Shown here in pieces: positions 43,834 through 58,927 of a stretch of DNA of 64,000 nt; the first letter of the stretch is position 1; each line of letters starts with the position of its first letter. The notes under the pieces are model-generated. The model saw only the letters and a list, made by a program, of their open reading frames with translations, was not told the DNA's origin and did not search any database. This DNA is from Deltaproteobacteria bacterium. GTDB taxonomy: Bacteria > Myxococcota_A > UBA796 > UBA9615. A program made the position numbers and the translations under genes. The stretch covers positions 8 through 64,007 of the forward strand of contig PBPL01000101.1 in the NCBI GenBank assembly GCA_002724675.1, given 5' to 3'.

Positions 43834-44517
43834 ATGGCTATCACCGTCAGGTTGTTTGCAGCCCTCCGCGAGCACGTCGGACACAGCAAGCTTGAGTTGG
43901 AGTTGGCACCGAACGAGACCGTGGGTTCTCTGTTTGACCGACTCTTCGTCGACCCAGCCCTCCAGGGACTGAGACCGTCGCTGCTCTTCGCGGTGAACCG
44001 GGACTACGTGAGCCACGACCACGAGCTTCGCGATGGTGACGAGGTCGCGTTCATCCCCCCACTGGGCGGGGGTGCTCCCGGTCCAGAGGGCGAGCCCATA
44101 GCCCGCGTGTTTCTGTCTCGGGAACCTCTGAACCTGTCCGCGCTGATTGACTGCGTTCGCGGACCAGGCCGGGGTGGAATCACGACATTCACCGGAACCG
44201 TCCGGGACCACTTTGAGGGCCGACCTGTCCTGCACCTGGACTACGAGGCCTACGAAGAGATGGTCCTACCCAAGATGGCCGAACTGTGCGAGATCATCGA
44301 GACCCGATGGCCGGAAACTTCGGTCGCTATGGCTCATCGAGTCGGCCGGCTCCACATCGGAGACGAGGCTGTCCACGTGGCGGTCGGCGCACCGCACCGG
44401 GACGCCGCCTTCGCAGCGTGTCGGTTCGCAATCGACGAACTCAAGGCCACCGTTCCTATCTTCAAGAAGGAGATCTACGAGGACGGCAGCCAGTGGAAGG
44501 CGCAGGGTGGTGGCTGA
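43834..44517 (+). CDS. Molybdopterin synthase MoaD-MoaE fusion (MoaX-like)
   Basis: The N-terminal MoaD/ThiS-like fold (MAITVRLFAALRE…GDEVAFIPPLGGG) ends in GG and is followed by a linker. The MoaE domain follows (…TFTGTVRD…LDYEAYEEM…VAMAHRVGRL…IFKKEIYEDGSQWK). Confidence 0.75.
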   Translation: MAITVRLFAALREHVGHSKLELELAPNETVGSLFDRLFVDPALQGLRPSLLFAVNRDYVSHDHELRDGDEVAFIPPLGGGAPGPEGEPIARVFLSREPLNLSALIDCVRGPGRGGITTFTGTVRDHFEGRPVLHLDYEAYEEMVLPKMAELCEIIETRWPETSVAMAHRVGRLHIGDEAVHVAVGAPHRDAAFAACRFAIDELKATVPIFKKEIYEDGSQWKAQGGG

Positions 44518-46406: not shown

Positions 46407-47649
46407 GATCCGCGGTCACCACGACACAATCAAAGGAGGAGAGCATCTCTTCGCCCAGCGACTCCGAAGCCAGCAACTCCCCCGAGACAAGCTCCAAGTG
46501 TGGCACATGTGGATCGTGGTACCGGATCTCAGCTCCCCGAGCGATCAGTAACTGAATGACATCGAGCGCCGGGCTCTCCCGAGTGTCGGACACGTTGGCC
46601 TTGTAGCTCACACCTAGGATGAGCACTCGACTGCCACGCACCGACTTGGAGTCCTCGTTCAGGCTCTCAGAGACCAACTCCACCACATGAGCCGGCATCG
46701 AGGTGTTGACCTCGGCGGCCAACTCGATGAACCGTGCGCGATAGTTGAGTGTCTTGAGGATCCAGGAAAGATAGTGCGGATCCACAGGGATGCAGTGCCC
46801 ACCCAGACCGGGGCCTGGATAAAACTTCATGAAGCCAAACGGCTTGGTGGCGGCGGCATCGATCACCTCCCAGGTGTCCAGGCCCAGCTTGCGACACATG
46901 AGCGCGACCTCGTTGACCAGCCCAATGTTCACCGCTCGAAAGGTGTTCTCCAGTAGCTTGGCCATCTCCGCTGCTCGGGTAGACGACATGGGGACAACCG
47001 TCGTCAAGAAGGTGTTGTACAGCGCGCAACCCACGGCAGTGCACGAATCGGTGATGCCGCCAACGAGACGCGGTGTGTTGCGGATATCGAACGAGAGGTT
47101 CCCCGGATCGACGCGCTCCGGGGAGAAGCAGAGGAAGAAGTCCTCACCGACCACCAAGCCCTTCTCTTCGAAGACGGGCAAGAGAAGCTCGTCGGTGCTC
47201 CCAGGGTAGGTGGTCGACTCCAGGACAATGAGTTGCCCAGGTCGAAGCCGCTCAGCCACTTCGCGGGCAGCCGTCAGAATGAACGAGATGTCCGGATCCC
47301 GCGTCTTGGATAGCGGAGTCGGCACGCAGATAGAGATCGCGTCCATCTCGGACAAATCATCGAAGCTCGCCCGGGGATGGAATCGACCCGACTGAAGGCA
47401 CTCCTGCAGGACCTTGTCGCTTACGTCGTCAATGTAGGACTTTCCCGCTAATAGACTGTCAATCTTTCGCTGATCAATGTCGTAGCCGGTCACATCGAGA
47501 CCAGCAGAGACCATGGTCATCGCCAGAGGAAGACCCACATAGCCCTGCCCGATGACACCCACTCGAGCCCCACCAGACTGAATGAGCCCAATCAACGCTG
47601 CGCTGGCATCCGTAGCTTGGTCGAGCGGCGTTGATTGATCAGTTCTCAT
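46297..47649 (-). CDS. Nucleotide-sugar (UDP-GlcNAc/ManNAc or UDP-glucose family) dehydrogenase
   Basis: It has VGVIGQGYVGLPLAM…ISICVPTPL…GVSYKANVSDTRESPAL. There is an ATGA overlap with the upstream gene. Confidence 0.8.
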   Translation of the reverse strand: MRTDQSTPLDQATDASAALIGLIQSGGARVGVIGQGYVGLPLAMTMVSAGLDVTGYDIDQRKIDSLLAGKSYIDDVSDKVLQECLQSGRFHPRASFDDLSEMDAISICVPTPLSKTRDPDISFILTAAREVAERLRPGQLIVLESTTYPGSTDELLLPVFEEKGLVVGEDFFLCFSPERVDPGNLSFDIRNTPRLVGGITDSCTAVGCALYNTFLTTVVPMSSTRAAEMAKLLENTFRAVNIGLVNEVALMCRKLGLDTWEVIDAAATKPFGFMKFYPGPGLGGHCIPVDPHYLSWILKTLNYRARFIELAAEVNTSMPAHVVELVSESLNEDSKSVRGSRVLILGVSYKANVSDTRESPALDVIQLLIARGAEIRYHDPHVPHLELVSGELLASESLGEEMLSSFDCVVVTADHAAIDWELVARKSVAIVDCRNALAGVDSPAGRIHKL

Positions 47650-49397
47650 CGGTGCTTGGCGGGTCCCACACAGGAGCGACGCATCCTACCCGGATTCCGT
47701 CCGCGCGACACCAGCCCGAGCAGTGCCCACGCCATCAGCAGAGCCACCGGCCCGTGTCCGCGAGCAGAACCACCCAACGACAGGAGCGAGGCCCCACAGT
47801 CCAAGCTGGGAGTCTCGTCCAGACGAAGAGGGTCGGAATAGCCCAGGTATTCCTCTAGGTTCGAGACGCCATCTCCATCGGCATCGAGCGCCCCATCGGC
47901 TCTCTGCGGATTCAATCCCCAGGCAAGCTCCCACACGTCATCCATGCCGTCCGCGTCCCCATCCGGAGGCAGATAGATCAGGCCCAACTCCACCCGTTCT
48001 TCAGTTCCCACCGAGACGACATCAGCGCTCCGCAGCGACCGTGCCTCTGGCCAGTAGGTTGTGACGCGGCTGGGATCGCCGGTGCAAAATGGTAGCCACT
48101 CAACCTGGACCAGGTAGGCGCCAGTATCGAGGCCCTGGACCACAAAAGCGCCATCCCCATCCGTTCGACCACCAGCGACCTCCATCTCGTCAGAGGCGTC
48201 GAATACTGTAATTGCGGCTCCACGAACCGCGGTGCCTGTTCGAGTCCGCACCGACCCCACCAACTGGCCTCCTTCCAGCATGGAGATGTCCAGCTGGCGT
48301 GTCTCACCAGCAACCAATCGGATGGGTTCGGCTGTGCGAAATGGAAGCAGTGGCGACGTACCGGCCAACTGGACCTCCACAGACACCGCACCCGCGGGCA
48401 AGTGCTCCAGACGAGCGGGTGTACTGGAGGTCTCCGGTCCCACCGACCGCGCCAGTAGGCGCTCCCCTCCCCCTCCATCGCTCGCCTGCCGCACAACCAA
48501 TTGCGCCCCGTAGCCCGCCTGCTCCTCCAGCCCACTGACACGAACCTCCAAGACCGCGGCCTCGGCGAGGACGAGGTCAGGAACCGTTGTCACCTCGCCC
48601 GCTTCGAGAAGCAGCCAATCAGCTTCGGCTTGAGTGTCCACTCCAGGAGACCACGTCCTTGAAAACCCCTCCGCTTCCACTCGCAACTGAAACTCAGAGC
48701 CGGGAACGGCGTCGAAGTAAAACCGACCGGTCGAATCGGTTGTAGAGGGCGGAACTGACGCGTTCCGCATCGACAAGAAAACCTCAGCCCCCGGGACAGG
48801 TCTATCTTCCTCGAGGACCCGACCCGCCACCGTGGCTCCTGCAGGCACCACGAGGTCAGCGCGTCGGTCCTCTCCACGCACAGCGTGAATGAACTCCGCC
48901 CCCTCAGGATTCCAGGTCCCCGGGAACCAGACCGACCCCGCCATGGGCACCTCGCCCAGCGGCGCCAGGGAGACTCTCAGCTCGTAGAGCCCCGGGAGGA
49001 TCTCCTCGTCCTCCACGAACGAATCCAGACCCGTGATGCGGTACTGACCTTCATCATCGGTCCAGGATTCTCGAATCAGCCCCTGGTGGAAATAGCCCAC
49101 CCCAGTGGCCGTGACCCTCTGGCCAGCGAGAGGGGCTCCATTGGAGTCCACAACCGTGCCCCACAACGACCCCCCTACAGGCAACAGGAAGTCGATGCCA
49201 GACAAGGTCTGATCGCTCTCTAAGCGCAAGATCTCTGCATTGCAGAAGAGATAGCGATCATCGTAGTAGGCACCCAGCCGATTGAGGGCATCCGGCGGCA
49301 AGGCCCAGGCCCGGTGCAGGCCTGGGTCGACTCCTTCGATGCGGTAGAACCCGCGCTCGTCCGTCGTGGACAGGGCCGCTTGGCCCTTGAGGTCCAT
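47646..49397 (-). CDS. Large secreted protein with repeated carboxypeptidase-regulatory-like (CarbopepD_reg_2-type) beta-sandwich domains, TSP3-type Ca-binding repeats and a C-terminal sorting-signal-like tail
   Basis: It contains multiple instances of …GTVVDSNGAPLAGQRVTA…DDEGQYRI… The C-terminus has …DGDADGMDD…DADGDGVSN… followed by a Cys/Gly segment, a hydrophobic helix and RGRNPGRMRR. The span given starts at the first ATG. A signal-peptide-like segment lies upstream in frame without a canonical start (see findings). Confidence 0.6.
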   Translation of the reverse strand: MDLKGQAALSTTDERGFYRIEGVDPGLHRAWALPPDALNRLGAYYDDRYLFCNAEILRLESDQTLSGIDFLLPVGGSLWGTVVDSNGAPLAGQRVTATGVGYFHQGLIRESWTDDEGQYRITGLDSFVEDEEILPGLYELRVSLAPLGEVPMAGSVWFPGTWNPEGAEFIHAVRGEDRRADLVVPAGATVAGRVLEEDRPVPGAEVFLSMRNASVPPSTTDSTGRFYFDAVPGSEFQLRVEAEGFSRTWSPGVDTQAEADWLLLEAGEVTTVPDLVLAEAAVLEVRVSGLEEQAGYGAQLVVRQASDGGGGERLLARSVGPETSSTPARLEHLPAGAVSVEVQLAGTSPLLPFRTAEPIRLVAGETRQLDISMLEGGQLVGSVRTRTGTAVRGAAITVFDASDEMEVAGGRTDGDGAFVVQGLDTGAYLVQVEWLPFCTGDPSRVTTYWPEARSLRSADVVSVGTEERVELGLIYLPPDGDADGMDDVWELAWGLNPQRADGALDADGDGVSNLEEYLGYSDPLRLDETPSLDCGASLLSLGGSARGHGPVALLMAWALLGLVSRGRNPGRMRRSCVGPAKHR

Positions 49398-49529: not shown

Positions 49530-50462
49530 TTACTCGAAGCCAATCAGCCAGATCGCCTGTCCACCGTACTGCCCAGACAGGTCCGTGCCCACGTAGGGGT
49601 TGGTCTCGGTGTTCTTGAAGAACTCCCAGTATCCGTACCACGAAGAGCCGGGGCCCGCCGCAGCCGAGACCTGGTTGATACCAATCTCGTTGGACAGCGT
49701 TCCAGGGGTGTTGTTCACGAAACCAGCGTGGGTGAACTCAAGCCCGTACTCAGACAGGGTCTGCTCGATCTCGGCAGCGCTGTAGCCACCGTCCACCGTC
49801 AGCTCCATGCCCTGATCGCTCATCGTGGTGACATCCACCAAGCCGAGGCTGAGGAAGTCGCCCATGCCACCATCGGTGATGGGAGTCAGCAGCGAGGGGC
49901 CGAAGTTGGCGCCGGCGAGGTCCAGCTCGGCGACATCGCAGTCGTCCGGGTTGGTCGCAGGATCGGAGATGTCGGTGGCCGACGTGTGATCGAACTCAAT
50001 GGAGCCCGTGCAGTTGTTGCAGCCTTCACCAGCCAGGATGCCGGGGCCGAAGGTGGCAGAGCCAGCGATCTGAATCCACTGCGTGCAGTTCAGGATCTGG
50101 GTTGCCTCGTTGTACTCAGCCCAGTAGTTGACACCGAACACGGCAGAGATGTCGGTAGAGGAGTCGTCCACGGGGACCGCTTCCATCTCGATGGAGAAGC
50201 TGATGGCAGCCAGCGCGAACTCAGCCGCGGTGTCGTCATCATCATCGTCGTCATCATCATCGTCGTCGCCGAGGTTGTTACCACCGTCGTCGTCGTCGTC
50301 ACCAGGAATGTTGTTGCCGTCGTTGTCAGTGTCACCGTCGATGGACGAGTCGCCACCATTGGCACCATCTGTGCGGGCATCACAGCCCATTCCAACCAAC
50401 GCAACACCCACAACCAGCGCCAACATATAGCTACTGAACATCTTCACGATAACCTTGAACAT
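49530..50462 (-). CDS. Acidic lipoprotein with a poly-Asp tract
   Basis: The start is at M48 (MFKVIVKMFSSYMLALVVGVALVGMGC), with GGAGGGA upstream. It has a lipobox. It contains DDDDDGGNNLGDDDDDDDDDDDD. The C-terminal domain is of unknown function. Confidence 0.6.
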   Translation of the reverse strand: MFKVIVKMFSSYMLALVVGVALVGMGCDARTDGANGGDSSIDGDTDNDGNNIPGDDDDDGGNNLGDDDDDDDDDDDDTAAEFALAAISFSIEMEAVPVDDSSTDISAVFGVNYWAEYNEATQILNCTQWIQIAGSATFGPGILAGEGCNNCTGSIEFDHTSATDISDPATNPDDCDVAELDLAGANFGPSLLTPITDGGMGDFLSLGLVDVTTMSDQGMELTVDGGYSAAEIEQTLSEYGLEFTHAGFVNNTPGTLSNEIGINQVSAAAGPGSSWYGYWEFFKNTETNPYVGTDLSGQYGGQAIWLIGFE

Positions 50463-50704
50463 TCGGGTCTCCCTCCACCTCGCATATACCGACCAGACCG
50501 GTTGCAGACACCCTGCAACACGAACCATCCAGCCCAGCTGAGTGCGAGCGGCGAGCGGTATGTACCCGAGAGCCGCGCGAAAGAAAAGTCCTTTTTCGAA
50601 CAAGCCCTACGCGAAACGGCAACAGGCATCGAAATCGGAAAAAACAAGAAGAGACGCAACTTCAAGACAAGGTCGACGCTGTAACCGATAGCGGCAACCG
50701 CAGC

Positions 50705-51991
50705 TCAGTCAACGCGAACCTGCCTGGGAGGCTCCTTCGACGCCGAGACCGCTCTGACCCGAGCCGTATCCAGCTGACCTCGACCAAACTCCGAGTCGAT
50801 CTCGCGTGCCAGCGAGAGCACGAAGCGAAGAGTTTGCTCGAGAGCGCGGGGCTCTACCGAGTCCAATCGGTCCTGGTGCGTGTGTAAGACCTCCGCAGCC
50901 CTGCCACGAACCAACGTAGTGAGCGTCACCGCCCGGTAGCCGGCCTCCGTCACCGGACCCGCATCGGTTCGCCCCACAAGGGCGACCTCGCCGACCCCAT
51001 CGAACTCATCGGACTGAGCGAGACGCTCCGCCAGAGCAGGCAGGCTTGGTCTATATGGCAAGCGGTCCCAACGCCCTTCTGAGCTGACGAAGTGCAGCTC
51101 CCCACGGCCGACGTCGTCTAGGTTGACGAAGAAGGTCGCGCGCCGGTCCAGAAGATGAGCGAACTGGCGCACGAACGCCTTCATGCCGCCCGAGTCCGCT
51201 TCACGCGCGCCGGTCGCGAGGACCCACAGCTCGCAGTGCTCCAGTGGTTCATTCACCAGATGCTCCGCGGCCACTAGAGCCACCGCGAGGCCAGAGCCGT
51301 TGTCGATGGCCCCAGCGGTGGGGACAGAGCGCCACCAATCGATGGCAATGAGAAGCGTGGCGACGTGGATCCAGGCCGCCATCAGCAGCGCCGCAAGCGC
51401 GACGGGAGAGGGTTCAGGAAGCGCCAACGCCAAGATGGAGGCGACAAGTTGAGTAGCACCACCGACGAGTACAATGGTGCCAGGGTGCAGGGGCACACCA
51501 CCGATTAATTCATAGTGAGCCAGTCGCTTGACCCAGGGACTGAAGAGCGTGGACGCACCGGCCACGTCCGCATGCGCCACGAGCACCACCCGACCCCGAC
51601 TGCCCGGCTGCCGAAGGCGCGCGACCATATTGCCCGTCAGCTGCTTCATGAGAAGCCAGCGCACCAGACGCGGGCGGCCGCGAAGCTCACCCCAAAAGGA
51701 CAGCAAGACCAACGAAGTCAGCAACACAGGCCCCAACCCGTTGCTCAGAAGGGACCAGAGCAGGGCCACGAGCAGAAGGGCCGAGTGTGTCCCCAGCAGG
51801 ACAGAGGTCTGAGGAGCGCACACCGCCCCCTCAACGACCGTGTCCATGCCCAGCCGGTCTAGACGCCCGGCAAGCGCAGCCTGGGCCATGCGCTCACCTT
51901 GAGAACCCGCCAGTCGACCAGGCAACTCGGTGACAACCCCGATGAATTCCTTCATGCGTTGGACCGTCGATGTTTGATGCGAGTGTGACAT
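50705..51991 (-). CDS. M28-family metallopeptidase, membrane-anchored
   Basis: It has N-terminal TM helices, the …AIDNGSG… motif and other M28-like metal-ligand regions. Confidence 0.65.
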   Translation of the reverse strand: MSHSHQTSTVQRMKEFIGVVTELPGRLAGSQGERMAQAALAGRLDRLGMDTVVEGAVCAPQTSVLLGTHSALLLVALLWSLLSNGLGPVLLTSLVLLSFWGELRGRPRLVRWLLMKQLTGNMVARLRQPGSRGRVVLVAHADVAGASTLFSPWVKRLAHYELIGGVPLHPGTIVLVGGATQLVASILALALPEPSPVALAALLMAAWIHVATLLIAIDWWRSVPTAGAIDNGSGLAVALVAAEHLVNEPLEHCELWVLATGAREADSGGMKAFVRQFAHLLDRRATFFVNLDDVGRGELHFVSSEGRWDRLPYRPSLPALAERLAQSDEFDGVGEVALVGRTDAGPVTEAGYRAVTLTTLVRGRAAEVLHTHQDRLDSVEPRALEQTLRFVLSLAREIDSEFGRGQLDTARVRAVSASKEPPRQVRVD

Positions 51992-52073: not shown

Positions 52074-53498
52074 ATGAACCTCGTTGTCGACGAGGTTGTT
52101 TCGCTGCACAGCGACAACCTCTCTCATGTATTCCATGTACCCACATCATCGCTGTATGCGATGGACTCCGAAACCATGTCTATCCTCGAGGGTGCTCGTG
52201 ATGGACTGCATACCGATCAGAGCCTGCAGAAACTGACGGCGGACTCAGGTCTCGACCCGGCCGAGGTCGAGGACATCATCGACAATTTGGTGAAGTTGCG
52301 TCTCCTGGTCCCACCAGGCGAGACCGGCAACCGAGGCCCACTTGCTGACCGGCCGCAGAGTGGCCGGAGCATGGGCAATCTCGTCCTCCACGTGGCACAC
52401 ACCTGCAATCTGGGTTGCGGCTACTGCTATGCGGAGCAAGGCCTGTACAAGGGCAAAGCCACCCTCATGAACGAAGAGCGAGCCCATGAATATGTGGACT
52501 GGCTATTCGACCAGTGTGATCCGGAGACCAAGTCTCTCGGCATCACTTTCTTCGGGGGCGAGCCACTGCTGAATCTGAAAGTCATGAAGTCCGCCGCAGC
52601 CCATGCTCGAGAACGAGCGGACACGGACAACAAGTCTGTGCGGTTCTCCGTGACGACCAACGGCACCCTAGTCACCCCCGAGATCGTCGACTTTCTAGCC
52701 GCCATCGACTGTGTCGTCACAGTGAGTCTGGACGGCATCGGCAAGACCAACGATCGCCTGCGCCCGTTCCACTCGGGCCGCGGGTCCTACGACCTCGTCC
52801 TGGACCGCATCCAACCGCTCCTCGAACGGGGCAAGGTGGCTGCCCGTGTCACCGTCACCCGGCAGAACCTCGATGTCGTAGACACCGTCACGACGCTCCT
52901 CGAACGAGGCTTCGCTGAGGTGGGGTGCTCGCCAGTCGATGCGAAGAATCCTGCCTACGACCTGCGAGGGGAAGACTACGAAGTGCTGCTCGATGGCTTC
53001 GGCACACTCTCCCGACGCTACATCGACGAGGCCGTGCAGGGTCGTAAGTACGGCTTCTCTAACATCGCCAACATCATCAAGGCGGTGCACCAAGGGCACA
53101 ACAAGGACTACCCGTGCGGCGCGGGGCTCCAGATGGTTGCGGGTGCCCCCAACGGTGAGATGAGCCTATGCCACCGATTCGTTGGTGAGCCGGACTACGT
53201 CCTTGGCAACGTCAAAGAGGGTGGAATCGATAGCCATCGTCGGCTTCAGATCCTCGAGGACATCCAGCTGTCCGAGCGATCCGACTGCTCCAGTTGCTGG
53301 GCCCGTTACATCTGCTCCGGCGGATGCCACCACGTCAACTTCCTGTTCGAGGGAGACCCCAGCCGCACTTACCTGACCCACTGTGACTACCTCCGAGCTT
53401 GGTATCGCATGGGCCTCGAAGCCTACGCTGAGATCATGTCACGCAACCCCGAGTTCGTCGGGGAGTTCATCGACCCCGGTTTTCTGTGCAATCAGTAA
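52074..53498 (+). CDS. Radical SAM / SPASM-domain peptide-modifying enzyme with an N-terminal RRE-like extension (QhpD-like thioether-forming maturase)
   Basis: It has the CNLGCGYC radical-SAM motif and a C-terminal SPASM region (CGAG…C…CSSCWARYICSGGCHH). The first ~90 aa read LYAMDSETMSILEG…DPAEVEDIIDNLVKLRLL, which resembles a PqqD-type RiPP recognition element (RRE). Confidence 0.85.
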   Translation: MNLVVDEVVSLHSDNLSHVFHVPTSSLYAMDSETMSILEGARDGLHTDQSLQKLTADSGLDPAEVEDIIDNLVKLRLLVPPGETGNRGPLADRPQSGRSMGNLVLHVAHTCNLGCGYCYAEQGLYKGKATLMNEERAHEYVDWLFDQCDPETKSLGITFFGGEPLLNLKVMKSAAAHARERADTDNKSVRFSVTTNGTLVTPEIVDFLAAIDCVVTVSLDGIGKTNDRLRPFHSGRGSYDLVLDRIQPLLERGKVAARVTVTRQNLDVVDTVTTLLERGFAEVGCSPVDAKNPAYDLRGEDYEVLLDGFGTLSRRYIDEAVQGRKYGFSNIANIIKAVHQGHNKDYPCGAGLQMVAGAPNGEMSLCHRFVGEPDYVLGNVKEGGIDSHRRLQILEDIQLSERSDCSSCWARYICSGGCHHVNFLFEGDPSRTYLTHCDYLRAWYRMGLEAYAEIMSRNPEFVGEFIDPGFLCNQ

Positions 53499-53535: not shown

Positions 53536-53832
53536 ATGAGCCGAATCAAGCCTCTGAACATTAAGGCAAGAGCTGTCGAAGCGAGCACAGACCGCGACGT
53601 GCGGGGCTACGCATTCGGCGACTGCTGCGCATCCTTCGCGCCGGGTTGGGAGGTGGGCACCCAAGACAACGCCGACCCCTGCCCGTGGAAGAGCGACCTC
53701 AGCCTCTGCTGGGGCACCTGCTACTGGATGGGTCAGGTGCCCGACTACATCTCGTACGGGGAGTGGCTCGACACCTGCGGCAACATTCAGAACGACTGGC
53801 GCAATCTCTGTACCATTCCGGACAACGGGTGA
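53536..53832 (+). CDS. Cys-rich precursor peptide (98 aa), resembling the QhpC gamma subunit of quinohemoprotein amine dehydrogenase
   Basis: The ATG lies 10 nt after AAAGGA. The 28-aa leader is MSRIKPLNIKARAVEASTDRDVRGYAFG. The core has 7 Cys, LCWGTCYW (a Cys-x5-Trp motif as in CTQ), PGWEV, QVPD and DWRNL. The stop lies 5 nt before the next start. Confidence 0.75.
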   Translation: MSRIKPLNIKARAVEASTDRDVRGYAFGDCCASFAPGWEVGTQDNADPCPWKSDLSLCWGTCYWMGQVPDYISYGEWLDTCGNIQNDWRNLCTIPDNG

Positions 53833-53837
53833 CGCTC

Positions 53838-54908
53838 ATGCTCCAGCGCACGAACTCCTATATCTGCACTCTGGCCGCTCTCGTCGCGGCTGCCGTCTGG
53901 CTGCTCGCCCTGCCTCAGCACACAGAGGCGGCGGGCGCTCGCACTGCATGGGTATCTAGCAACCACATCCAGGTCATTGACCTGGACACGGCTCGGGTCA
54001 TTGGCCGGCTGCCGCTCTCCGAGTTCATCCACGACATGGACTTCAGCGTGGACGGCAACCGCGTGTACGTAGGCAGCAGCAAGGGGCTGCGTGTGGCCGA
54101 TGCCAACGAGCTCCGGTTTGTGCAGCAGGTGTCCACGAGCATGACCAAGGCCGTAGCGGTCTCCAAAGACGGCAGTCGCGTCGCAGCGATTCATCCTGGG
54201 GACCGAGAGGCGACACAGGCAGCCCGGAAAGCTGGCCTTCCCCTCCCCCCCGCCAAGATCACGATCTACTCGACGCTGGACATGAAGGAACAGAGTTCCT
54301 GGCACGTGCACGCCATGACATTCGATGTCCTGTTCGCGCCATCGAACGATCGGGTCTACGTGTTGGTACCCCCCGAGGGCATGGTCTATGTCCACGACTT
54401 GAGTGGGGCAGTTCTCGACACCATTCAGCTCGTACCGAGGAGCCCCGAGGGTTCCCACCAGGGAGCAATGCTGACCTGGATGGCGCTCTCGCCCGATGGC
54501 CGATCGCTGGTGGTCCCCGGCACAACCGCAGACCGATCGTTCGTAGCAGAGGTCGACCTGGGCAACAGACGACCCCTGGATGAACGCGTGGTCCACCAAG
54601 ATCTGGGACACAACCGGAGGATCCAAGGGCTGGCTTGGGACGATGACGGCAGTGGTGTTTACGTCACTGCAGTGAACTCCATGGTCAAGTTCAATGGTCT
54701 CGGTCTTCCCATCGCCTGGGAATCCATGCCGCTCAACTACGTCGACATCGAGCCCATCCCAGGCACCAACGAGAACGTCCTGGTGGCGCCCATCTTCTCC
54801 AAGTCCAACAAGAGCGGGGGGGTCGCCATCTTGGGCGAAAACGGCGAGTTCCTGAGAACGGTGGAGTTGCCCGACATGAGCCCCTACTTCGTGGCTGTCC
54901 GACCCTGA
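53838..54908 (+). CDS. Secreted beta-propeller protein (YVTN-type repeats), QhpB beta-subunit-like
   Basis: It has a signal peptide (MLQRTNSYICTLAALVAAAVWLLALPQHTEAAG). It also has repeated …DGxRVYV… blades, which fits a 7-bladed propeller of ~326 aa mature length. Confidence 0.7.
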   Translation: MLQRTNSYICTLAALVAAAVWLLALPQHTEAAGARTAWVSSNHIQVIDLDTARVIGRLPLSEFIHDMDFSVDGNRVYVGSSKGLRVADANELRFVQQVSTSMTKAVAVSKDGSRVAAIHPGDREATQAARKAGLPLPPAKITIYSTLDMKEQSSWHVHAMTFDVLFAPSNDRVYVLVPPEGMVYVHDLSGAVLDTIQLVPRSPEGSHQGAMLTWMALSPDGRSLVVPGTTADRSFVAEVDLGNRRPLDERVVHQDLGHNRRIQGLAWDDDGSGVYVTAVNSMVKFNGLGLPIAWESMPLNYVDIEPIPGTNENVLVAPIFSKSNKSGGVAILGENGEFLRTVELPDMSPYFVAVRP

Positions 54909-54918
54909 CCACACTCTG

Positions 54919-54940
54919 CCTACACGCGCCCGACCGGGCG
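54919..54940 (+). promoter_or_regulatory. GC-rich inverted repeat CGCGCCCG-AC-CGGGCGCG immediately 3' of the beta-propeller gene. Candidate intra-operon attenuator.
   Basis: It forms a perfect 8-bp stem. The coordinates are approximate to +/-2 nt. Confidence 0.3.
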
Positions 54941-55072
54941 CGGCTGACGCAACTTGAGCAAGCCTCGGACCTTCGTCGGTCGGAGGCTGCCTGGCTATCC
55001 AGTCTGCCCGACTACAGCCGGCTCTATTTTGGGGTCGAGTTCTGCGAGCACCTGCTTCCCAGCGCGGACGAC

Positions 55073-55900
55073 GTGGAGGCCGCTTGCGACTTCTGCAACC
55101 GGCGTCAATGGAAGCTAACGCTGCTGACACCCTACGTAACCGACTGGGGGCTCGAGAAGATCGACCCACTCCTCCAGGCCCTAGACACCATGGCGCCCCA
55201 TGGCACCGAGGTGGTCGTCAACGACTGGGGAGTACTCCGCCAGGTAGCCAACCGCTCCAACGCAGACCTCTTGGTTGTACTGGGCCGAGGGTTGAACCGG
55301 ATGTTCCGCGACCCGAGAGTTCCCGATGTAGGTCCAGAACATCTGGGGGGAGACGCTCCACCGAGCGCTTGGCGTAGCGCGAGCCACCAGAGTCAGGGTT
55401 TCCGAACCATGCTCCGCTCGGCAGGCATCCAACGGATCGAAACGGACATGCCGATGCAAGGTATGCAGGACCTGGACCCCGACGAACAAGACCTGAAGCT
55501 AAGTGTTCACCTGCCCTATGGAATGGTGGCCAGCGGCCGCATCTGCATGATGAGCGCCCTTGGGCAGTCGGCTTCAGTGCGATTCCCCCCACCTCGCGCC
55601 TGCACTGCGCCCTGCCACGACTACACTTTGGAGCTTCGCGCGCCCTGGACGCGTCGAGCGGTTGGAGCAGGCCGGCTACCCCTGGTTGCAGAGGACAGCT
55701 TTCTGCCTCTAGACCACGTGCTCAATCGCCGTCGTAACGCGTTTCCAGCCCACGAGAATGACGACGCACCGAGGTTCATCCAGAAAGGCAACACCCACTT
55801 CTACTGCCTGGACGAGGAGAAGGTGGACAGTGCGCTGGACTGGGTCCACCGCAACCCCACAGCAGACCGCATCGTGGTAGCACCTGACGTGCCCATGTAG
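55073..55900 (+). CDS. U32-family protein, UbiV-like. The true start is probably upstream, near 55000.
   Basis: …DFCNRRQWK… aligns to the UbiV AVCSKRR Cys-ligand region. …VVVNDWGVLRQVANR… aligns to the UbiV LLEANDLGAVQLAHE region. The in-frame upstream sequence encodes a conserved-looking LYFGVEFCEHLLP, but there is no ATG/GTG/TTG until 55073. Confidence 0.7.
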   Translation: MEAACDFCNRRQWKLTLLTPYVTDWGLEKIDPLLQALDTMAPHGTEVVVNDWGVLRQVANRSNADLLVVLGRGLNRMFRDPRVPDVGPEHLGGDAPPSAWRSASHQSQGFRTMLRSAGIQRIETDMPMQGMQDLDPDEQDLKLSVHLPYGMVASGRICMMSALGQSASVRFPPPRACTAPCHDYTLELRAPWTRRAVGAGRLPLVAEDSFLPLDHVLNRRRNAFPAHENDDAPRFIQKGNTHFYCLDEEKVDSALDWVHRNPTADRIVVAPDVPM

Positions 55901-55928: not shown

Positions 55929-57035
55929 GTGCAAATCCTTTGCCCCGTCAACAGCCCCGAAGAGGTCGCTCCGCTTGTGGATGCAGGGGCGGACGAGTTC
56001 TACTGCGGCCTGTTCCCCACAGAGTGGTACGAAAAGTGGGGTCGTGGGAGCTGGCCTAACCGGCGCGGACCAGGCCCGGCCAACATCAGCAAGATTGACG
56101 ACCTGGCGCGGCTGGCAGACAGCGTGCACACCGCAGGCTCCGGTGGGCCCAACCAGCGGCGAGTTCCACTGTTCGTTGCGCTAAACCAACAGTTCTACCC
56201 AGACGACCAGGCGGACTTCCTCCTGGGGATCGCTCAGGACCTCCAGAGCCGCTCCGCTGTGGACGCCTTCATAGTGAGTGACCCCGGCTTCATGGGCCTC
56301 TTGAAGACTGAGATTCCGGAGGCGCGAGTCTTCTCCTCCACGGTGTCTGTTGCAACCAATGCTCAGGCGGTCCGGTTTCTTGCGGACTTGGGATGCTCCC
56401 GAGTCATCCTGTCCCGTCATCTGCACCTGGCCGAGGTCGAGTCGCTGCAACAATCCGTCCCCGATGTGGAGCTGGAGGTCTTCCTGCTCAACGACAACTG
56501 TTATTTCGAGGAAGGCTTCTGCAGCACGACACACACCATGCCGGGCTTCGGTGTCTACTGCATGACACCGTGGGAGCTGAGAGTCACCCGCGATGATCAG
56601 GGGGGGCAGGGTCTATCCGATCCCGAGGAGCGAGCTCGCTGGGACTTTCTCATCGACGAGCACCGACGCTTCCTGGGCAATCTGTCGCACCGGGGTTTTG
56701 GGGGCGGTCGCGCAGCAGTTCCGCTCGGACCATGCGGACTCTGCGCGATCCCCAAGCTCATGGACCTGGGCATCCACAGCGGCAAGATCGTGGGTAGGGA
56801 GGCCAGCCTGTATCGAAAGATCCGCTCTGTTCAGTCCGTCCGATACGTACGGGACAGCTATCGAGAAACCGGAGATGCTCAAGAGGCAAAGAAGAAGGCA
56901 GTAGAGCTTCGTGCTGACCCACGGGGTTGCAGTAGCGGCATGTCCTGTTACTACCGTAGCGCCCGAGACCGCGACCTCATCCCCCTGCCCTCCCGGAGCA
57001 CCAAGAAGCCGACTCGAAACGCGACCAAGCCATGA
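55929..57035 (+). CDS. U32-family protein, UbiU-like
   Basis: MQILCPVNSPEEVAPLVDAGADEFYCGL matches the UbiU/RlhA N-terminus (MELLCPAGN…GADAVYIGL). There are Cys clusters (NDNCYFEEGFC…, PLGPCGLC). Confidence 0.75.
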   Translation: MQILCPVNSPEEVAPLVDAGADEFYCGLFPTEWYEKWGRGSWPNRRGPGPANISKIDDLARLADSVHTAGSGGPNQRRVPLFVALNQQFYPDDQADFLLGIAQDLQSRSAVDAFIVSDPGFMGLLKTEIPEARVFSSTVSVATNAQAVRFLADLGCSRVILSRHLHLAEVESLQQSVPDVELEVFLLNDNCYFEEGFCSTTHTMPGFGVYCMTPWELRVTRDDQGGQGLSDPEERARWDFLIDEHRRFLGNLSHRGFGGGRAAVPLGPCGLCAIPKLMDLGIHSGKIVGREASLYRKIRSVQSVRYVRDSYRETGDAQEAKKKAVELRADPRGCSSGMSCYYRSARDRDLIPLPSRSTKKPTRNATKP

Positions 57036-58927
57036 CCTCAAAGGGGTCCCCTCCCCCCTCTCCAGCCTTTGTGCCCGAGGCCATACGGCCGGACTCGGTG
57101 CGCCCAGCCGACACGGAGGTGTCGGAGCACACGAAGGTCCCCTGGAAGCGCGTCTTCAGCTACCTACTGCCCTACTGGAAGGCCGAGGTCCTTCTGGTGC
57201 TCGGTATGGCGATCGGTATTGGGCTCTCCTTGGTCTACCCGTTCCTGCTGCGAGAAATCGTCGACGATGTGGTGGGCCCCGGCGCCTCGGCTGCGACCGA
57301 TCGATTGTTACCCCTTGCCGCCCTCATCCTGGCCGCCACGGCCGGCGGGGTCGTGCTCTCTGCCGCTGCCGCCTGGCTCCAGACCTGGGTCACAGCACAC
57401 GTCCTCGTTGATCTCCGCTTGGAGTTGTTCCAGCACCTTCAGTCATTGGGCCCTGCTTTCTTTGCCCGCAAGCGACTGGGGGACGTCCTGTCTCGCATGG
57501 GAGGAGACCTCGCCGAGCTGCAACAGGTGGCCACCGGAACTCTCATCAATGTCATTGGGTCGGTCGTCACACTCGTGGGAGTCATCACGGCGCTCACCTT
57601 CCTCCAGCCCCTATTGCTTGCCGTAGGCGCGGCGTTCATCCCCATCGCTATCGGCTTACTGGTGCTGCTTCGGCCCATCATCCGGCGCCTGTCTTTGAGG
57701 ATTCGAGAGCGCAACGCTGACATCTCCCATCAGATGTTGGAGAGCCTAACCGGCCTGCGCACGGTCCTGGCCCACGGGCTTGCCGACCGAGAAGCGAAGC
57801 GGTTCGAGGGCAACAACTTGGCGTTGATCCGAGCCGTTCTGCTCTTCCGCCTGTGGAACTCGGGATCAGCCGGCGCCTTCCAGATCCTCGTCACGGCGAA
57901 CCTCCTGGCTGTCCTCGTCGTTGGTGTCTGGCTGATGCGAACGACTGCGATGACCCCAGGCGACCTCGTCGCGTTCCTCCTGTTCCAACAGCGACTCTAC
58001 GGTCCGCTGCAGGGGCTGGCGGGCACTTATGTCAATCTGCAGCGGGCAGCAGCGTCAGTGGCGCGAGTCTTCGAGTTGCGCGACGCCAAGCCCCTGGAGG
58101 CTGCCGACCCGGCCCTGTCCCTCGACGAACCCTTCCAGGGACGCGTCGAGTTCGACAAGGTTTCGTTCCAATACGCTCCCGGACGACGGGTTCTGACCGA
58201 CCTGACGATGCGAGTGGATCCCGGAGAGACCGTGTGCCTGGTCGGCCCCTCAGGAGTGGGCAAGACGACCGTCCTCGAGCTCATGTTTCGATTCGTCGAC
58301 CCCGATGAGGGACGCGTTCTACTGGACGGCATCGATCTTCGAGAACTGGACCTCGACAGCGTTCTGCCCCAGGTCGCGTTGGTAGGCCAAGAGCCCGCGC
58401 TGTTCGATGGCACTCTACGCGACAACCTCCGATGGCTCCGGCCGGACGCGCCAGAGGCCACCATGAACGAAGTGGTCGAGCAAGTGGGCTTGTCGGAGTT
58501 CGTCCGCAGCCTGCCCCAGGGGCTGGAGACTCCTCTCGGCGACCGCGGCATTCGCCTGTCCTCTGGGCAGCGCCAGCGCATCGGGCTCGCCCGCGCGCTT
58601 CTCCGAGAACCCGTCCTCTTGGTGCTGGACGAAGTCACCTCGGCCCTGGACTGGGAGAGTGACCGGCTCGTCGTCGAAGCACTCCAAGCTCGGCGAGCCT
58701 CGGGCTGCACCACCCTGATCATCTCCCACCGCCTGCATCTTGCCGTCGATGCAGACCGAGTCGTCGTACTAGAAGACGGTCACGTGGCGACCACAGGCAC
58801 CCACCTCACCCTGCTCGACCAGGGCGGACTGTACCGCAGACTTTGGGACTTGCAGCGAGGCGCGGCAGAGGCCAGGAGGTCCCCCAGCAGCGGCAGAACA
58901 CACCCCACCGAGGACGGCTCGGCGTGA
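57032..58927 (+). CDS. ABC transporter, fused permease/ATPase exporter (QhpF-like)
   Basis: It has 6 TM helices, Walker A GPSGVGKTT, the signature LSSGQRQRIGLARAL and Walker B LLVLDEVTSALD. There is an ATGA overlap with the U32 gene. Confidence 0.85.
   Translation: MTSKGSPPPSPAFVPEAIRPDSVRPADTEVSEHTKVPWKRVFSYLLPYWKAEVLLVLGMAIGIGLSLVYPFLLREIVDDVVGPGASAATDRLLPLAALILAATAGGVVLSAAAAWLQTWVTAHVLVDLRLELFQHLQSLGPAFFARKRLGDVLSRMGGDLAELQQVATGTLINVIGSVVTLVGVITALTFLQPLLLAVGAAFIPIAIGLLVLLRPIIRRLSLRIRERNADISHQMLESLTGLRTVLAHGLADREAKRFEGNNLALIRAVLLFRLWNSGSAGAFQILVTANLLAVLVVGVWLMRTTAMTPGDLVAFLLFQQRLYGPLQGLAGTYVNLQRAAASVARVFELRDAKPLEAADPALSLDEPFQGRVEFDKVSFQYAPGRRVLTDLTMRVDPGETVCLVGPSGVGKTTVLELMFRFVDPDEGRVLLDGIDLRELDLDSVLPQVALVGQEPALFDGTLRDNLRWLRPDAPEATMNEVVEQVGLSEFVRSLPQGLETPLGDRGIRLSSGQRQRIGLARALLREPVLLVLDEVTSALDWESDRLVVEALQARRASGCTTLIISHRLHLAVDADRVVVLEDGHVATTGTHLTLLDQGGLYRRLWDLQRGAAEARRSPSSGRTHPTEDGSA

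What the first reader, a model, noticed from the sequence alone, without database searches (positions are those of the whole stretch)
53536..53832. Gamma-subunit-like precursor: 28-aa leader, 7-Cys core, and a Cys-x5-Trp motif suited to a cysteine tryptophylquinone
The core DCCASFAPGWEVGTQDNADPCPWKSDLSLCWGTCYWMGQVPDYISYGEWLDTCGNIQNDWRNLCTIPDNG contains LCWGTCYW. In this motif a Cys and a Trp are spaced i and i+6, as in the CTQ crosslink of QhpC. It also has several Cys residues with nearby Asp/Glu, which are potential thioether partners. From memory, the motifs PGWEV and DWRNL resemble QhpC.

The leader length of 28 equals the reported QhpC leader. The core has 7 Cys, against 4 in QhpC, which implies additional crosslinks or disulfides.
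Basis: partly seen in the sequence, partly recalled or inferred. Interest (0 to 1): 0.8.

Follow-up and report, generated by a model that had tools for sequence, protein, structure and literature searches.

The report
Quinone-cofactor enzyme subunit with unusual maturation genes
The small gene encodes the precursor of the cross-linked, quinone-bearing subunit of a bacterial amine dehydrogenase, a known family, but its operon has no heme subunit and carries an oxygen-independent-type iron-sulfur enzyme pair where the usual oxygen-dependent cofactor-forming enzyme would be.

Summary
The ORF at 53536-53832 (+, 98 aa) is real and belongs to the QhpC family, the gamma subunit of quinohemoprotein amine dehydrogenase. 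It scores above the curated cut-offs of NCBIfam NF037958 (63 vs 50 bits) and Pfam PF08992 (41 vs 25 bits). All eight crosslink residues of the solved gamma subunits align: Cys7-Glu16, Cys27-Asp33, Cys41-Asp49 and the CTQ pair Cys37-Trp43.

The "28-aa leader" does not: homology puts the cleavage point near residue 23/24.

The operon is more interesting than the peptide. It runs QhpD-like radical SAM, gamma, beta-propeller, an unannotated Cys-rich TIM-barrel protein ("orfX"), a U32 Fe-S protein, QhpF-like ABC exporter and QhpE-like protease. The 64-kb window holds no diheme alpha subunit (QhpA) and no flavin monooxygenase (QhpG).

Among 34 related loci, 27 carry orfX+U32, 2 carry QhpG and none carries both. 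Two loci that do have QhpA also carry orfX+U32.

I infer that the U32 pair replaces QhpG as an O2-independent Trp hydroxylase. This rests on gene context only and is untested.

Two extra conserved cysteines (C81, C92) could form a disulfide or further thioethers. Sequence alone cannot decide.

The parts
52074..53498 (+). QhpD-like radical SAM/SPASM thioether-forming maturase (474 aa; CxxxCxxC at residues 111-118)
   Evidence: The best NCBIfam hit is TIGR03906 (quinohemoprotein amine dehydrogenase maturation protein) at 373.8 bits, full length, below the equivalog cut-off of 453. The next hits are the PapB and SCIFF thioether maturases. The closest solved structure is CteB, 5wgg, E 1.2e-59.
53536..53832 (+). 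QhpC-family gamma-subunit precursor (98 aa). The leader is about residues 1-23 (53536-53604) and carries the family-wide N-x-K-A motif; the core is about residues 24-98. Predicted thioethers are C30-E39, C49-D54 and C62-D70. The predicted CTQ pair is C58 (53707-53709) with W64 (53725-53727). Extra Cys are C31, C81 and C92.
   Evidence: NF037958 63 bits (cut-off 50). PF08992 41.3 bits (cut-off 25). 1jmx_G E 4.6e-9 with a residue-by-residue match of the crosslink residues. Conservation in 24 relatives is, and family-wide conservation.
53829..54908 (+). Beta-subunit-like 7-bladed beta-propeller with an N-terminal Sec-type signal/TM segment. The start is GTG 53829 (GTGA overlap with the gamma stop) or ATG 53838.
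   Evidence: The AlphaFold model has pLDDT 91.7 and is all-beta after helix 6-24. In Foldseek against PDB, 1jmx_B ranks 2 (E 3.2e-14) and 1jju_B ranks 7, among many generic propellers. The clade profile hits 1jju_B at E 8.7e-6 and the beta of a QhpA-bearing operon (L046) at 50.8 bits. NCBIfam QH_beta gives only 15 bits against a cut-off of 223. The gene follows gamma in 41 loci.
54905..55900 (+). 'orfX': an unannotated Cys-rich TIM-barrel protein, proposed UbiV-like partner of the U32 protein. The likely start is CTG 54905 (CTGA overlap with the beta stop; 331 aa). The first canonical start, GTG 55073, would cut off the conserved YFGxEFCxHLLPS motif.
55929..57035 (+). U32-family Fe-S protein (368 aa). 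It is not an ortholog of UbiU, TrhP or RlhA, and is the proposed O2-independent hydroxylase subunit.
   Evidence: PF01136 Peptidase_U32 121.2 bits (cut-off 22.4). UbiU scores 72.7 bits against a cut-off of 440, and TrhP 82.5 against 534. The invariant Cys are C191-X6-C198-X12-C211, C269-X2-C272 and C334-X5-C340. This compares with CX6CX15-16C in the U32 family (PMC6747719).
57032..58927 (+). QhpF-like ABC exporter, a half-transporter with fused TMD and NBD (631 aa). Its ATGA overlaps the U32 stop.
   Evidence: ABC_membrane 141 bits and ABC_tran 100.9 bits. It falls in the MsbA/HlyB-type exporter families. It is conserved downstream of U32 in most loci. The role of QhpF is taken from PMC7876137.
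58924..59658 (+). QhpE-like subtilisin-family leader protease (about 244 aa from GTG 58924, GTGA overlap with the ABC stop). The Asp/His/Ser motifs VVDSG, GHGT and GPSFA are present.
   Evidence: The best NCBIfam hit is NF049966 QhpE at 128.9 bits, below the cut-off of 165. Peptidase_S8 scores 49.2 bits. The start codon and motifs were read from the sequence.
50705..51991 (-). Divergently transcribed membrane M28-family peptidase. It is a conserved neighbour within this lineage, and whether it belongs to the system is uncertain.
   Evidence: Peptidase_M28 53.8 bits. It is present divergently upstream of the radical SAM gene in the Myxococcota-type loci. It is absent from the more distant U32-bearing loci L006, L034, L040, L044 and L046, so lineage synteny is the more likely explanation.

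Best explanation
The ORF encodes the precursor of a QhpC-type gamma subunit. This is a small polypeptide whose four canonical cysteines are fixed by post-translational crosslinks. Three are Cys-to-Asp/Glu thioethers (C30-E39, C49-D54, C62-D70). The fourth is the cysteine tryptophylquinone (CTQ) cofactor, formed from C58 and W64.

By analogy with the characterised qhp system, maturation would run as follows. (1) The adjacent QhpD-like radical SAM enzyme binds the N-terminal leader (conserved N-x-K-A motif) and makes the thioethers in the cytoplasm. (2) Trp64 is dihydroxylated. (3) The QhpE-like S8 protease removes the leader of about 23 residues. (4) The QhpF-like ABC exporter moves the crosslinked peptide to the periplasm. 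(5) There it joins the Sec-exported beta-propeller, and the quinone with its Cys-Trp bond is completed.

This operon differs from the characterised enzyme in two ways. First, it has no diheme alpha subunit, so the product would be a heme-less beta-gamma quinoprotein that hands electrons to a separate, unknown acceptor. Second, it has no flavin monooxygenase QhpG. In that place sits a co-conserved pair of Cys-rich proteins: orfX, with a UbiV-like Cys pattern, and a U32-family protein.

I infer that this pair carries out step 2 without O2. It would do so as UbiU-UbiV, TrhP and RlhA hydroxylate aromatic rings, using prephenate as the oxygen donor.

Shown here: family membership of gamma, conservation of the crosslink residues, gene order and its conservation, and absence of QhpA/QhpG from the window. 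Inferred: every chemical step, the role of the U32 pair, the leader cleavage site and the fate of C81/C92.
For: Gamma membership:
- NF037958 63 bits (cut-off 50) and PF08992 41.3 bits (cut-off 25).
- Alignment to 1jmx_G and 1jju_C matches C30/E39, C49/D54, C58/W64 and C62/D70 to Cys7/Glu16, Cys27/Asp33, Cys37/Trp43 and Cys41/Asp49.
- These eight residues are invariant in 24 relatives and conserved in nearly all full-length members across the family.

Maturation genes:
- The best NCBIfam hits of the neighbours are QhpD (374 bits) and QhpE (129 bits), plus an ABC exporter.
- The genes are coupled by 4-nt overlaps: GTGA, CTGA, ATGA, GTGA.

No QhpA:
- No ORF in the 64 kb has more than one CxxCH motif.
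- tblastn with a QhpA that scores 529 bits against TIGR03908 finds nothing in the window.

No QhpG:
- tblastn with two QhpG-like proteins finds nothing in the window.

Co-occurrence:
- Of 34 non-redundant loci with at least 5 kb downstream of gamma, 27 carry orfX+U32, 2 carry QhpG (L038, L043), none carries both, and 5 carry neither.
- L044 (Planctomycetia) and L046 have QhpA in the operon together with orfX+U32 and no QhpG. The pair therefore tracks the absence of QhpG, not the absence of QhpA.
- orfX homologues include a Syntrophobacteraceae MAG.

U32 chemistry:
- UbiU-UbiV form a heterodimer with one 4Fe-4S cluster each, and act as O2-independent hydroxylases (PMC6747719).
- Prephenate is the O donor, and most U32 subfamilies remain uncharacterised (PMC10990095).
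- orfX has C47...C214-X18-C233-X3-C237, against UbiV's CXnCX12CX3C. The U32 protein has C191-X6-C198-X12-C211, against CX6CX15-16C.

Why a replacement is needed:
- QhpG is the O2-dependent Trp dihydroxylase and is essential in the canonical system (PMC7876137).
Against:
- The radical SAM, protease and beta proteins all score below the equivalog cut-offs of the QhpD, QhpE and QhpB models. They are divergent.
- The link from orfX to the U32 family is weak. It has no Pfam or NCBIfam hit, hhalign probability is only 63%, and the fold searches return generic TIM barrels with U32 Mk0906 not on top.
- Direct hydroxylase activity has not been shown in vitro for any U32 protein, and no U32 protein is known to act on a protein substrate.
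- QhpA and QhpG could lie elsewhere in the genome. Only 64 kb was seen, and only +/-10 kb in the related loci.
- The loci were collected by similarity to this gamma clade, so the 27:2:0 tally is not an unbiased sample of the family.
- Five loci have neither QhpG nor U32 nearby.
- An orfX-U32 pair also occurs without any gamma gene (L045), so the pair is not dedicated to QhpC.
Confidence: 0.65

Rival explanations
1. This is an ordinary quinohemoprotein amine dehydrogenase whose qhpA and qhpG genes lie elsewhere in the chromosome. The orfX-U32 pair would then be an unrelated neighbour, or serve another pathway.
For: Gene order in qhp operons is known to vary (PMC7876137). Only 64 kb of this genome was available. 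Five related loci show neither QhpG nor U32 within 10 kb. An orfX-U32 pair also occurs away from any gamma gene (L045).
Against: - orfX and U32 sit inside the operon, between beta and the ABC exporter, with 4-nt overlaps.
- This placement holds in 27 of 34 loci spanning Myxococcota-type, Gemmatimonadota, Glassbacteria and Planctomycetia MAGs.
- No locus has both QhpG and U32.
- Where QhpA is in the operon (L044, L046), QhpG is still absent and the pair is present.
- There is no QhpA or QhpG in 53 kb upstream and 10 kb downstream here.
Confidence: 0.15
2. The orfX-U32 pair belongs to the system but does something other than hydroxylate Trp64. Possibilities are the final two-electron oxidation and Cys-Trp coupling (thought to use the alpha-subunit hemes in the canonical enzyme), hydroxylation of another residue, or proteolysis, as the family name suggests.
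For: The final oxidation to CTQ is only proposed to be done by the QhpA hemes (PMC7876137), and QhpA is missing here. The U32 protein has seven invariant Cys, more than one 4Fe-4S site needs. The gamma core has other conserved Trp/Tyr residues. The U32 family was first described as peptidases.
Against: The pair co-occurs with QhpA in L044 and L046, so it is not a substitute for QhpA. The missing function common to all U32-bearing loci is QhpG's. A dedicated QhpE-like leader protease is already present. The characterised Fe-S U32 members are all linked to hydroxylation, not proteolysis.
Confidence: 0.15
3. The peptide is a secreted ranthipeptide-type natural product (RiPP) rather than an enzyme subunit. 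The Cys-x5-Trp motif would then be incidental.
For: The radical SAM enzyme also scores well against the PapB and SCIFF thioether maturases (296 and 265 bits). An ABC exporter and a protease are typical RiPP genes.
Against: The peptide passes the curated QH_gamma equivalog threshold. It keeps the CTQ Cys/Trp pair and Asp54, which aligns with Asp33 of the solved enzymes; the description of Asp33 as the active-site Asp is from my recollection of the structural papers, not from a tool result. A signal-peptide-bearing beta-propeller follows gamma in 41 loci. That propeller is homologous to the beta of QhpA-bearing operons.
Confidence: 0.03

Closest known systems
QhpC, the gamma subunit of quinohemoprotein amine dehydrogenase (Pseudomonas putida 1JMX chain G; Paracoccus denitrificans 1JJU chain C)
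   Same: It has the same family models above threshold. The PGWEV, CxxxCxW...QVPD and DWRNL motifs match. All eight crosslink residues are conserved. It has a leader with the N-x-K-A motif and no Sec signal. It is followed by the beta gene and preceded by a QhpD-type radical SAM gene.
   Different: Identity in the core is only about 35-40%. There is one residue fewer between the second Cys and its Asp (C-x4-D instead of C-x5-D). The N-terminal region is shorter, with about 23 rather than 28 residues before the homologous mature end. There are three more Cys: C31 (variable), and C81 and C92 (conserved). The C-terminus is LCx[IV]PD.
The qhp operon, qhpABCDEFGR (Nakai/Okajima/Tanizawa; PMC7876137)
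   Same: QhpB-, C-, D-, E- and F-like genes are present and tightly coupled.
   Different: No qhpA (diheme alpha) and no qhpG (FAD monooxygenase) was found in 64 kb. No AraC-type qhpR was noticed next to the operon. Two extra genes, orfX and U32, lie between beta and the exporter.
UbiU-UbiV, and TrhP and RlhA: U32-family Fe-S proteins required for O2-independent, prephenate-dependent hydroxylation of aromatic rings
   Same: There is a U32 domain with a CX6C...C motif. An adjacent second Cys-rich TIM-barrel gene has one distant N-terminal Cys plus a C...CX3C cluster, as in UbiV. The two genes are always adjacent, as ubiU and ubiV are.
   Different: It is not an ortholog: UbiU 72.7 bits against a cut-off of 440, and TrhP 82.5 against 534. 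The partner orfX is not recognised by the U32 Pfam model at all. The proposed substrate is a protein-bound tryptophan rather than a quinone precursor or an RNA base. The U32 protein has seven invariant Cys.
LodA/LodB and GoxA/GoxB (CTQ oxidases), and MADH/MauG (TTQ)
   Same: All are tryptophylquinone enzymes that need a dedicated modifying enzyme for the Trp oxygenation/crosslink (PMC7876137; PMC11951088).
   Different: Those systems use flavoproteins or a diheme enzyme with O2 or H2O2. They have no thioether-crosslinked small subunit, no radical SAM enzyme and no U32 protein.

Membership tests
QhpC / QH_gamma (NF037958, PF08992) | Score above the curated family cut-off | tested here: met
   NF037958 63.0 bits against 50. 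PF08992 41.3 bits against 25.
QhpC / QH_gamma (NF037958, PF08992) | CTQ-forming Cys and Trp at i/i+6, within C-x3-C-x-W | tested here: met
   C58 and W64 align with Cys37 and Trp43 of 1jmx_G and 1jju_C. Both are conserved in nearly all full-length family members.
QhpC / QH_gamma (NF037958, PF08992) | Three Cys with their Asp/Glu thioether partners | tested here: met
   C30/E39, C49/D54 and C62/D70 align with Cys7/Glu16, Cys27/Asp33 and Cys41/Asp49. The second pair is spaced one residue closer.
QhpC / QH_gamma (NF037958, PF08992) | Cleavable N-terminal leader of 28 residues recognised by QhpD, with no Sec signal | tested here: inconclusive
   The leader motif N8-x-K10-A11 is shared with gamma precursors from QhpA-bearing operons. 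By homology the leader is about 23 residues, not 28. The actual cleavage site is unknown.
QhpC / QH_gamma (NF037958, PF08992) | The thioether bonds and the quinone are actually present in the protein | not testable with these tools
   This needs mass spectrometry or a structure of the native or co-expressed protein.
Quinohemoprotein amine dehydrogenase (alpha-beta-gamma holoenzyme) | Diheme cytochrome c alpha subunit (QhpA, TIGR03908) | tested here: not met
   No ORF with two CxxCH motifs. No tblastn hit with a 529-bit QhpA in the 64-kb window. It could still be encoded elsewhere.
Quinohemoprotein amine dehydrogenase (alpha-beta-gamma holoenzyme) | 7-bladed beta-propeller beta subunit (QhpB, TIGR03907) encoded next to gamma | tested here: inconclusive
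   TIGR03907 gives only 15 bits against a cut-off of 223. The model is a confident propeller, with 1jmx_B at rank 2 and 1jju_B at rank 7 among generic propellers. The clade profile hits 1jju_B at E 8.7e-6 and the beta of QhpA-bearing L046 at 50.8 bits.
Quinohemoprotein amine dehydrogenase (alpha-beta-gamma holoenzyme) | Flavin monooxygenase QhpG (NF049967) for Trp dihydroxylation | tested here: not met
   No tblastn hit in the window with two QhpG-like queries.
Quinohemoprotein amine dehydrogenase (alpha-beta-gamma holoenzyme) | QhpD radical SAM, QhpE protease and QhpF ABC exporter | tested here: met
   The best hits are TIGR03906 (374 bits, cut-off 453) and NF049966 (129 bits, cut-off 165), plus an MsbA/HlyB-type exporter. 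They are right by family but below the equivalog cut-offs.
U32 O2-independent hydroxylases (UbiU/UbiV, TrhP, RlhA) | Peptidase_U32 domain (PF01136) | tested here: met
   121.2 bits against a cut-off of 22.4 for 55929-57035. There is no hit for orfX.
U32 O2-independent hydroxylases (UbiU/UbiV, TrhP, RlhA) | Conserved four-Cys 4Fe-4S motif (CX6CX15-16C...C; UbiV: CXnCX12CX3C) | tested here: met
   U32 has invariant C191-X6-C198-X12-C211 plus C269 and others. orfX has C47...C214-X18-C233-X3-C237. The reference motifs are from PMC6747719. The spacings differ somewhat, and cluster binding was not tested.
U32 O2-independent hydroxylases (UbiU/UbiV, TrhP, RlhA) | Orthology to a characterised member | tested here: not met
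   UbiU 72.7 bits against a cut-off of 440. TrhP 82.5 bits against 534.
U32 O2-independent hydroxylases (UbiU/UbiV, TrhP, RlhA) | Partner protein is itself a U32-fold protein forming a heterodimer | tested here: inconclusive
U32 O2-independent hydroxylases (UbiU/UbiV, TrhP, RlhA) | Prephenate-dependent, O2-independent hydroxylation activity | not testable with these tools
   This needs anaerobic reconstitution and 18O-shikimate/prephenate labelling.

The most novel reading that the evidence does not exclude
A tryptophylquinone cofactor is made without molecular oxygen. In this operon, and in at least 26 related loci, a U32-family Fe-S protein and its Cys-rich partner replace the flavoprotein QhpG and dihydroxylate a protein-bound tryptophan. 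These loci include two that also carry the diheme alpha subunit. The enzyme in this window would be a heme-less beta-gamma CTQ quinoprotein, possibly stapled by five rather than three thioethers. This would be the first protein substrate for a U32 hydroxylase and the first O2-independent route to a quinone cofactor derived from an amino-acid residue.
Probability: 0.45. Interest if true: 0.8.

Novelty: new variant of a known kind. Interest (0 to 1): 0.6.

Why it matters
To my knowledge, every characterised route to a protein-derived quinone cofactor (TPQ, LTQ, TTQ, CTQ) consumes O2 or H2O2. This is general knowledge plus PMC7876137 and PMC11951088, not a tool result.

QhpG, the Trp dihydroxylase of the canonical system, is strictly O2-dependent. 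It has not been explained how organisms with little or no oxygen could build CTQ enzymes.

The gene context found here gives a concrete and cheaply testable candidate: a U32 Fe-S pair of the kind that makes ubiquinone and hydroxylated RNA bases anaerobically. If correct, it would extend U32 chemistry to a protein substrate and assign a function to one of the many uncharacterised U32 subfamilies.

It would also define a heme-less two-subunit form of the amine dehydrogenase whose electron acceptor is unknown.

The peptide on its own is ordinary. NCBI's model already names close relatives "quinohemoprotein amine dehydrogenase subunit gamma".

Tried and rejected
- **orfX family models:** Pfam and NCBIfam scans of orfX and 37 homologues gave no meaningful family.
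- **orfX against solved structures:** a profile search of PDB sequences gave only noise.
- **AlphaFold database library:** it was unavailable, so no comparison with the E. coli UbiV model was possible.
- **Beta fold search:** this confirms a 7-bladed propeller but does not separate QhpB from other propellers.
- **GTG 55073 as the orfX start:** rejected as the likely true start. The conserved N-terminal motif with the fourth Cys lies upstream in frame, and that stretch is confidently modelled.
- **TTG 58843 as the protease start:** rejected in favour of GTG 58924, which overlaps the ABC stop and matches the QhpE model start.
- **Literature:** searches linking U32/UbiU with quinohemoprotein amine dehydrogenase or tryptophylquinone, and U32 with RiPP radical SAM systems, gave no relevant paper. 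Subscription-only papers were not searched.
- **Spurious-ORF reading:** rejected on family scores and on conservation in more than 35 loci.
- **C81-C92 disulfide versus extra thioethers:** I could not decide.
Full report
**1. The observation**

ATG 53536 to TGA 53830-53832 on the + strand gives 98 aa, with an AAGGA box about 9 nt upstream. It has seven cysteines (residues 30, 31, 49, 58, 62, 81, 92) and six tryptophans, and it is the only such gene in the window.

It scores above the curated thresholds of both family models for the gamma subunit of quinohemoprotein amine dehydrogenase:
- NCBIfam NF037958: 63.0 bits (cut-off 50, E 2e-17).
- Pfam PF08992: 41.3 bits (cut-off 25).

It also hits both solved gamma subunits directly: 1jmx_G at E 4.6e-9 and 1jju_C at E 3.5e-7.

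**2. Crosslink residues**

In the alignments the PDB chain index equals the published mature numbering, with Cys7 at chain position 7. The mapping is:

| This protein | Solved gamma subunit | Role |
|---|---|---|
| C30 / E39 | Cys7 / Glu16 | thioether |
| C49 / D54 | Cys27 / Asp33 | thioether |
| C58 / W64 | Cys37 / Trp43 | CTQ pair |
| C62 / D70 | Cys41 / Asp49 | thioether |

PGWEV is identical in both structures and DWRNL is identical in P. putida. So the Cys-x5-Trp reading and the two recalled motifs are correct. The only spacing change is one residue fewer between the second Cys and its Asp.

These eight residues are invariant in 24 close relatives. They are also conserved in nearly all full-length members of the 56 cluster representatives that an exhaustive profile search found in 1.84 billion proteins.

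**3. The leader**

The 28-residue leader is not supported. Mature residue 1 of the solved chains corresponds to about G24 here. By homology the leader is therefore about 23 residues and the mature chain about 75. The precursor as a whole is about 8 positions shorter than the family model.

What is shared with precursors from QhpA-bearing operons is the N-terminal motif [KR]-P-[LV]-N-x-K-A. This is presumably the handle for the radical SAM enzyme. The real cleavage site remains unknown.

**4. The extra cysteines**

- C31 is C, S or A among relatives and is unlikely to be structural.
- C81 and C92 are conserved in this clade.
- C81 is not a novelty of this protein. Most family members outside the Pseudomonas/Paracoccus type carry it, including 5-Cys precursors from QhpA-bearing operons (L043, L044, L046) that have no C92.
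- C92 occurs only together with Asp96, in a C-terminal LCx[IV]PD motif.
- C81 lies six residues before the family-invariant Asp87, the same C-x5-D spacing as Cys27-Asp33.

Two readings remain open. One is a periplasmic C81-C92 disulfide. This is favoured a little by three 10-Cys relatives that add Cys at positions 80 and 90, right beside 81 and 92. The other is two further QhpD-type thioethers, C81-D87 and C92-D96. This is favoured by the lone C81 in many relatives and by the C92/D96 co-occurrence. Sequence cannot decide; thiol counting by MS would.

**5. The operon**

The genes are coupled by 4-nt overlaps (GTGA, CTGA, ATGA, GTGA). In order they are:

1. **Radical SAM/SPASM enzyme (52074-53498).** Its best family hit is the QhpD model TIGR03906 (374 bits, below the 453 cut-off). 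Its closest solved structure is the thioether synthase CteB.
2. **Gamma (53536-53832).**
3. **Signal-peptide-bearing 7-bladed propeller (53829/53838-54908).** The model has pLDDT 91.7. QhpB structures rank 2 and 7 in Foldseek but are not separable from other propellers. The clade profile hits 1jju_B at 8.7e-6 and the beta of a QhpA-bearing operon at 50.8 bits.
4. **orfX.**
5. **U32-family protein (55929-57035).** PF01136 scores 121 bits.
6. **ABC exporter (57032-58927).**
7. **Subtilisin-like protease.** Its best hit is QhpE (129 bits, cut-off 165), and it probably starts at GTG 58924.

The flanks are housekeeping genes: ffh, truB, rbfA, a moaD-moaE fusion, a UDP-glucose dehydrogenase-family gene and guaA. 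orfX is 100% identical to a hypothetical protein of a "Deltaproteobacteria bacterium" MAG. The nearest genome relatives are uncultured Myxococcota-type MAGs.

**6. What is missing**

No ORF in the 64 kb has more than one CxxCH motif. tblastn finds nothing in the window with a bona fide QhpA (529 bits to TIGR03908, from L043) or with two QhpG-like proteins, one of which scores 230 bits to NF049967.

In the characterised system QhpG is the O2-dependent FAD enzyme that puts both oxygens on Trp43, and it is essential. The alpha-subunit hemes are proposed to do the final oxidation (PMC7876137).

**7. What is there instead**

The same order, rSAM-gamma-beta-orfX-U32-ABC-S8, recurs in relatives down to about 50% gamma identity and across several phyla. 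The tally for 34 non-redundant loci with at least 5 kb downstream of gamma is:

| Content near gamma | Loci |
|---|---|
| orfX + U32 | 27 |
| QhpG (L038, L043) | 2 |
| both | 0 |
| neither | 5 |

Two loci have a QhpA gene in the operon together with orfX+U32 and no QhpG. These are L044 (Planctomycetia MAG) and L046, which has QhpA with all four alpha-subunit Pfam domains. The pair therefore tracks the absence of QhpG, not the absence of QhpA.

This sample is biased toward relatives of this gamma, and only +/-10 kb was seen per locus.

**8. The pair itself**

The U32 protein is not an ortholog of UbiU or TrhP (73 and 83 bits against cut-offs of 440 and 534). It does carry an invariant C191-X6-C198-X12-C211 motif, plus C269-X2-C272 and C334-X5-C340. 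The family motif is CX6CX15-16C (PMC6747719).

orfX has no Pfam or NCBIfam family in any of its 123 homologues found. Its annotated GTG start at 55073 cuts off a conserved in-frame motif, YFGxEFCxHLLPS. Counting from CTG 54905, which overlaps the beta stop as CTGA, the protein is 331 aa. Its Cys pattern is then C47...C214-X18-C233-X3-C237. This recalls UbiV's CXnCX12CX3C, with its first Cys far upstream. The modelled N-terminal extension is confident, with pLDDT 92-93.

The fold is a TIM barrel. Evidence that it is U32-like is suggestive only:
- hhalign against the neighbouring U32 family: E 7e-5, prob 63%.
- Foldseek: 5d88 at prob 1.0, rank 9.

An orfX-U32 pair also occurs next to an arylsulfotransferase with no gamma gene (L045). 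The pair is therefore a module used in more than one pathway.

**9. Mechanism proposed**

UbiU-UbiV form a heterodimer with one 4Fe-4S cluster each and are required for O2-independent ring hydroxylation. Prephenate is the oxygen donor. TrhP and RlhA do the same on RNA bases. Most U32 subfamilies have no known function.

The most economical reading is that orfX-U32 is the O2-independent counterpart of QhpG. It would act in the cytoplasm on the thioether-crosslinked precursor, before leader removal and export.

In this window the product would then assemble with beta alone, giving a heme-less CTQ quinoprotein. Its electron acceptor, and the catalyst of the last oxidation and Cys-Trp coupling, are both unknown.

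I put about 0.95 on gamma being a true QhpC-family precursor. I put about 0.8 on the operon encoding an alpha-less enzyme rather than having qhpA elsewhere. I put about 0.5 on the U32 pair being the Trp hydroxylase.

**10. Novelty**

The peptide is a new member of a known family. NCBI already names close relatives "quinohemoprotein amine dehydrogenase subunit gamma".

The operon is a new variant of a known system. No paper in the searchable library links U32 proteins with QHNDH, CTQ or thioether-forming radical SAM clusters. A 2025 review lists only flavoprotein- or heme-dependent routes to CTQ and TTQ.

Noticed in passing
window 54905-55072: The conserved N-terminal motif of orfX (SRLYFGVEFCEHLLPS, with a near-invariant Cys) is encoded in frame upstream of the first canonical start, GTG 55073. 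There is no ATG, GTG or TTG before it. CTG 54905 overlaps the beta stop as CTGA. The public 275-aa gene call (P0037) is probably truncated by 56 residues.
   Followed up: partly
L006 931-1599; L007 7545-8190: MAGs of Candidatus Glassbacteria and one JGI metagenome contig (nearly identical to a Gemmatimonadota MAG locus, L039) carry two tandem gamma genes of about 98-100 aa. These have a longer insert between the CTQ Cys and the next Cys (e.g. CHGLFSGCWW). In L006 the pair is followed by orfX, U32 and S8.
   Followed up: no
L008 4446-5327; L038 about 3853-4683 (- strand): Some alpha-less loci encode a protein of about 290 aa that has only the alpha-subunit domain IV (PF09100) and no heme motif. 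It may be a remnant or a minimal alpha subunit. None was found in the window.
   Followed up: partly
L024 11402-12109; L025 1524-2273: Two Myxococcota-type loci lack orfX and U32. They have instead a 235-249-aa signal-peptide protein with no family hit, between beta and the ABC exporter. No QhpG lies within 10 kb.
   Followed up: partly
P0251 (557 aa), P0260 (518 aa): A QhpC-like N-terminal domain, with the leader motif and the CTQ-type Trp but only some of the Cys, is fused to a C-terminal region of about 400-450 residues of unknown function.
   Followed up: no
L045 8001-10018: An orfX-U32 pair in a Vicinamibacterales MAG sits next to an arylsulfotransferase-family gene, with no gamma, beta or radical SAM gene. 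The pair is therefore a reusable module with other substrates.
   Followed up: no
window 55929-57035: The U32 protein has seven invariant cysteines, more than one 4Fe-4S site needs. C269-X2-C272 and C334-X5-C340 could form a second metal site.
   Followed up: no
window 49530-50603 (- strand): This 357-aa ORF has a long acidic run (DDDDDGGNNLGDDDDDDDDDDDD). It is conserved next to the carboxypeptidase-regulatory-domain protein (47646-49397) in several related loci. Its function is unknown and it is probably unrelated to the operon.
   Followed up: no
window 43834-44517: A fused MoaD(ThiS)-MoaE molybdopterin synthase gene. The same fusion occurs upstream in related locus L004.
   Followed up: no
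Genome contigs record titles, L011-L035: Many of the closest MAGs are titled "uncultured Rickettsiales bacterium". Yet they share synteny and 60-78% gamma identity with MAGs titled Deltaproteobacteria or Myxococcota. The Rickettsiales labels look like misassignments.
   Followed up: no
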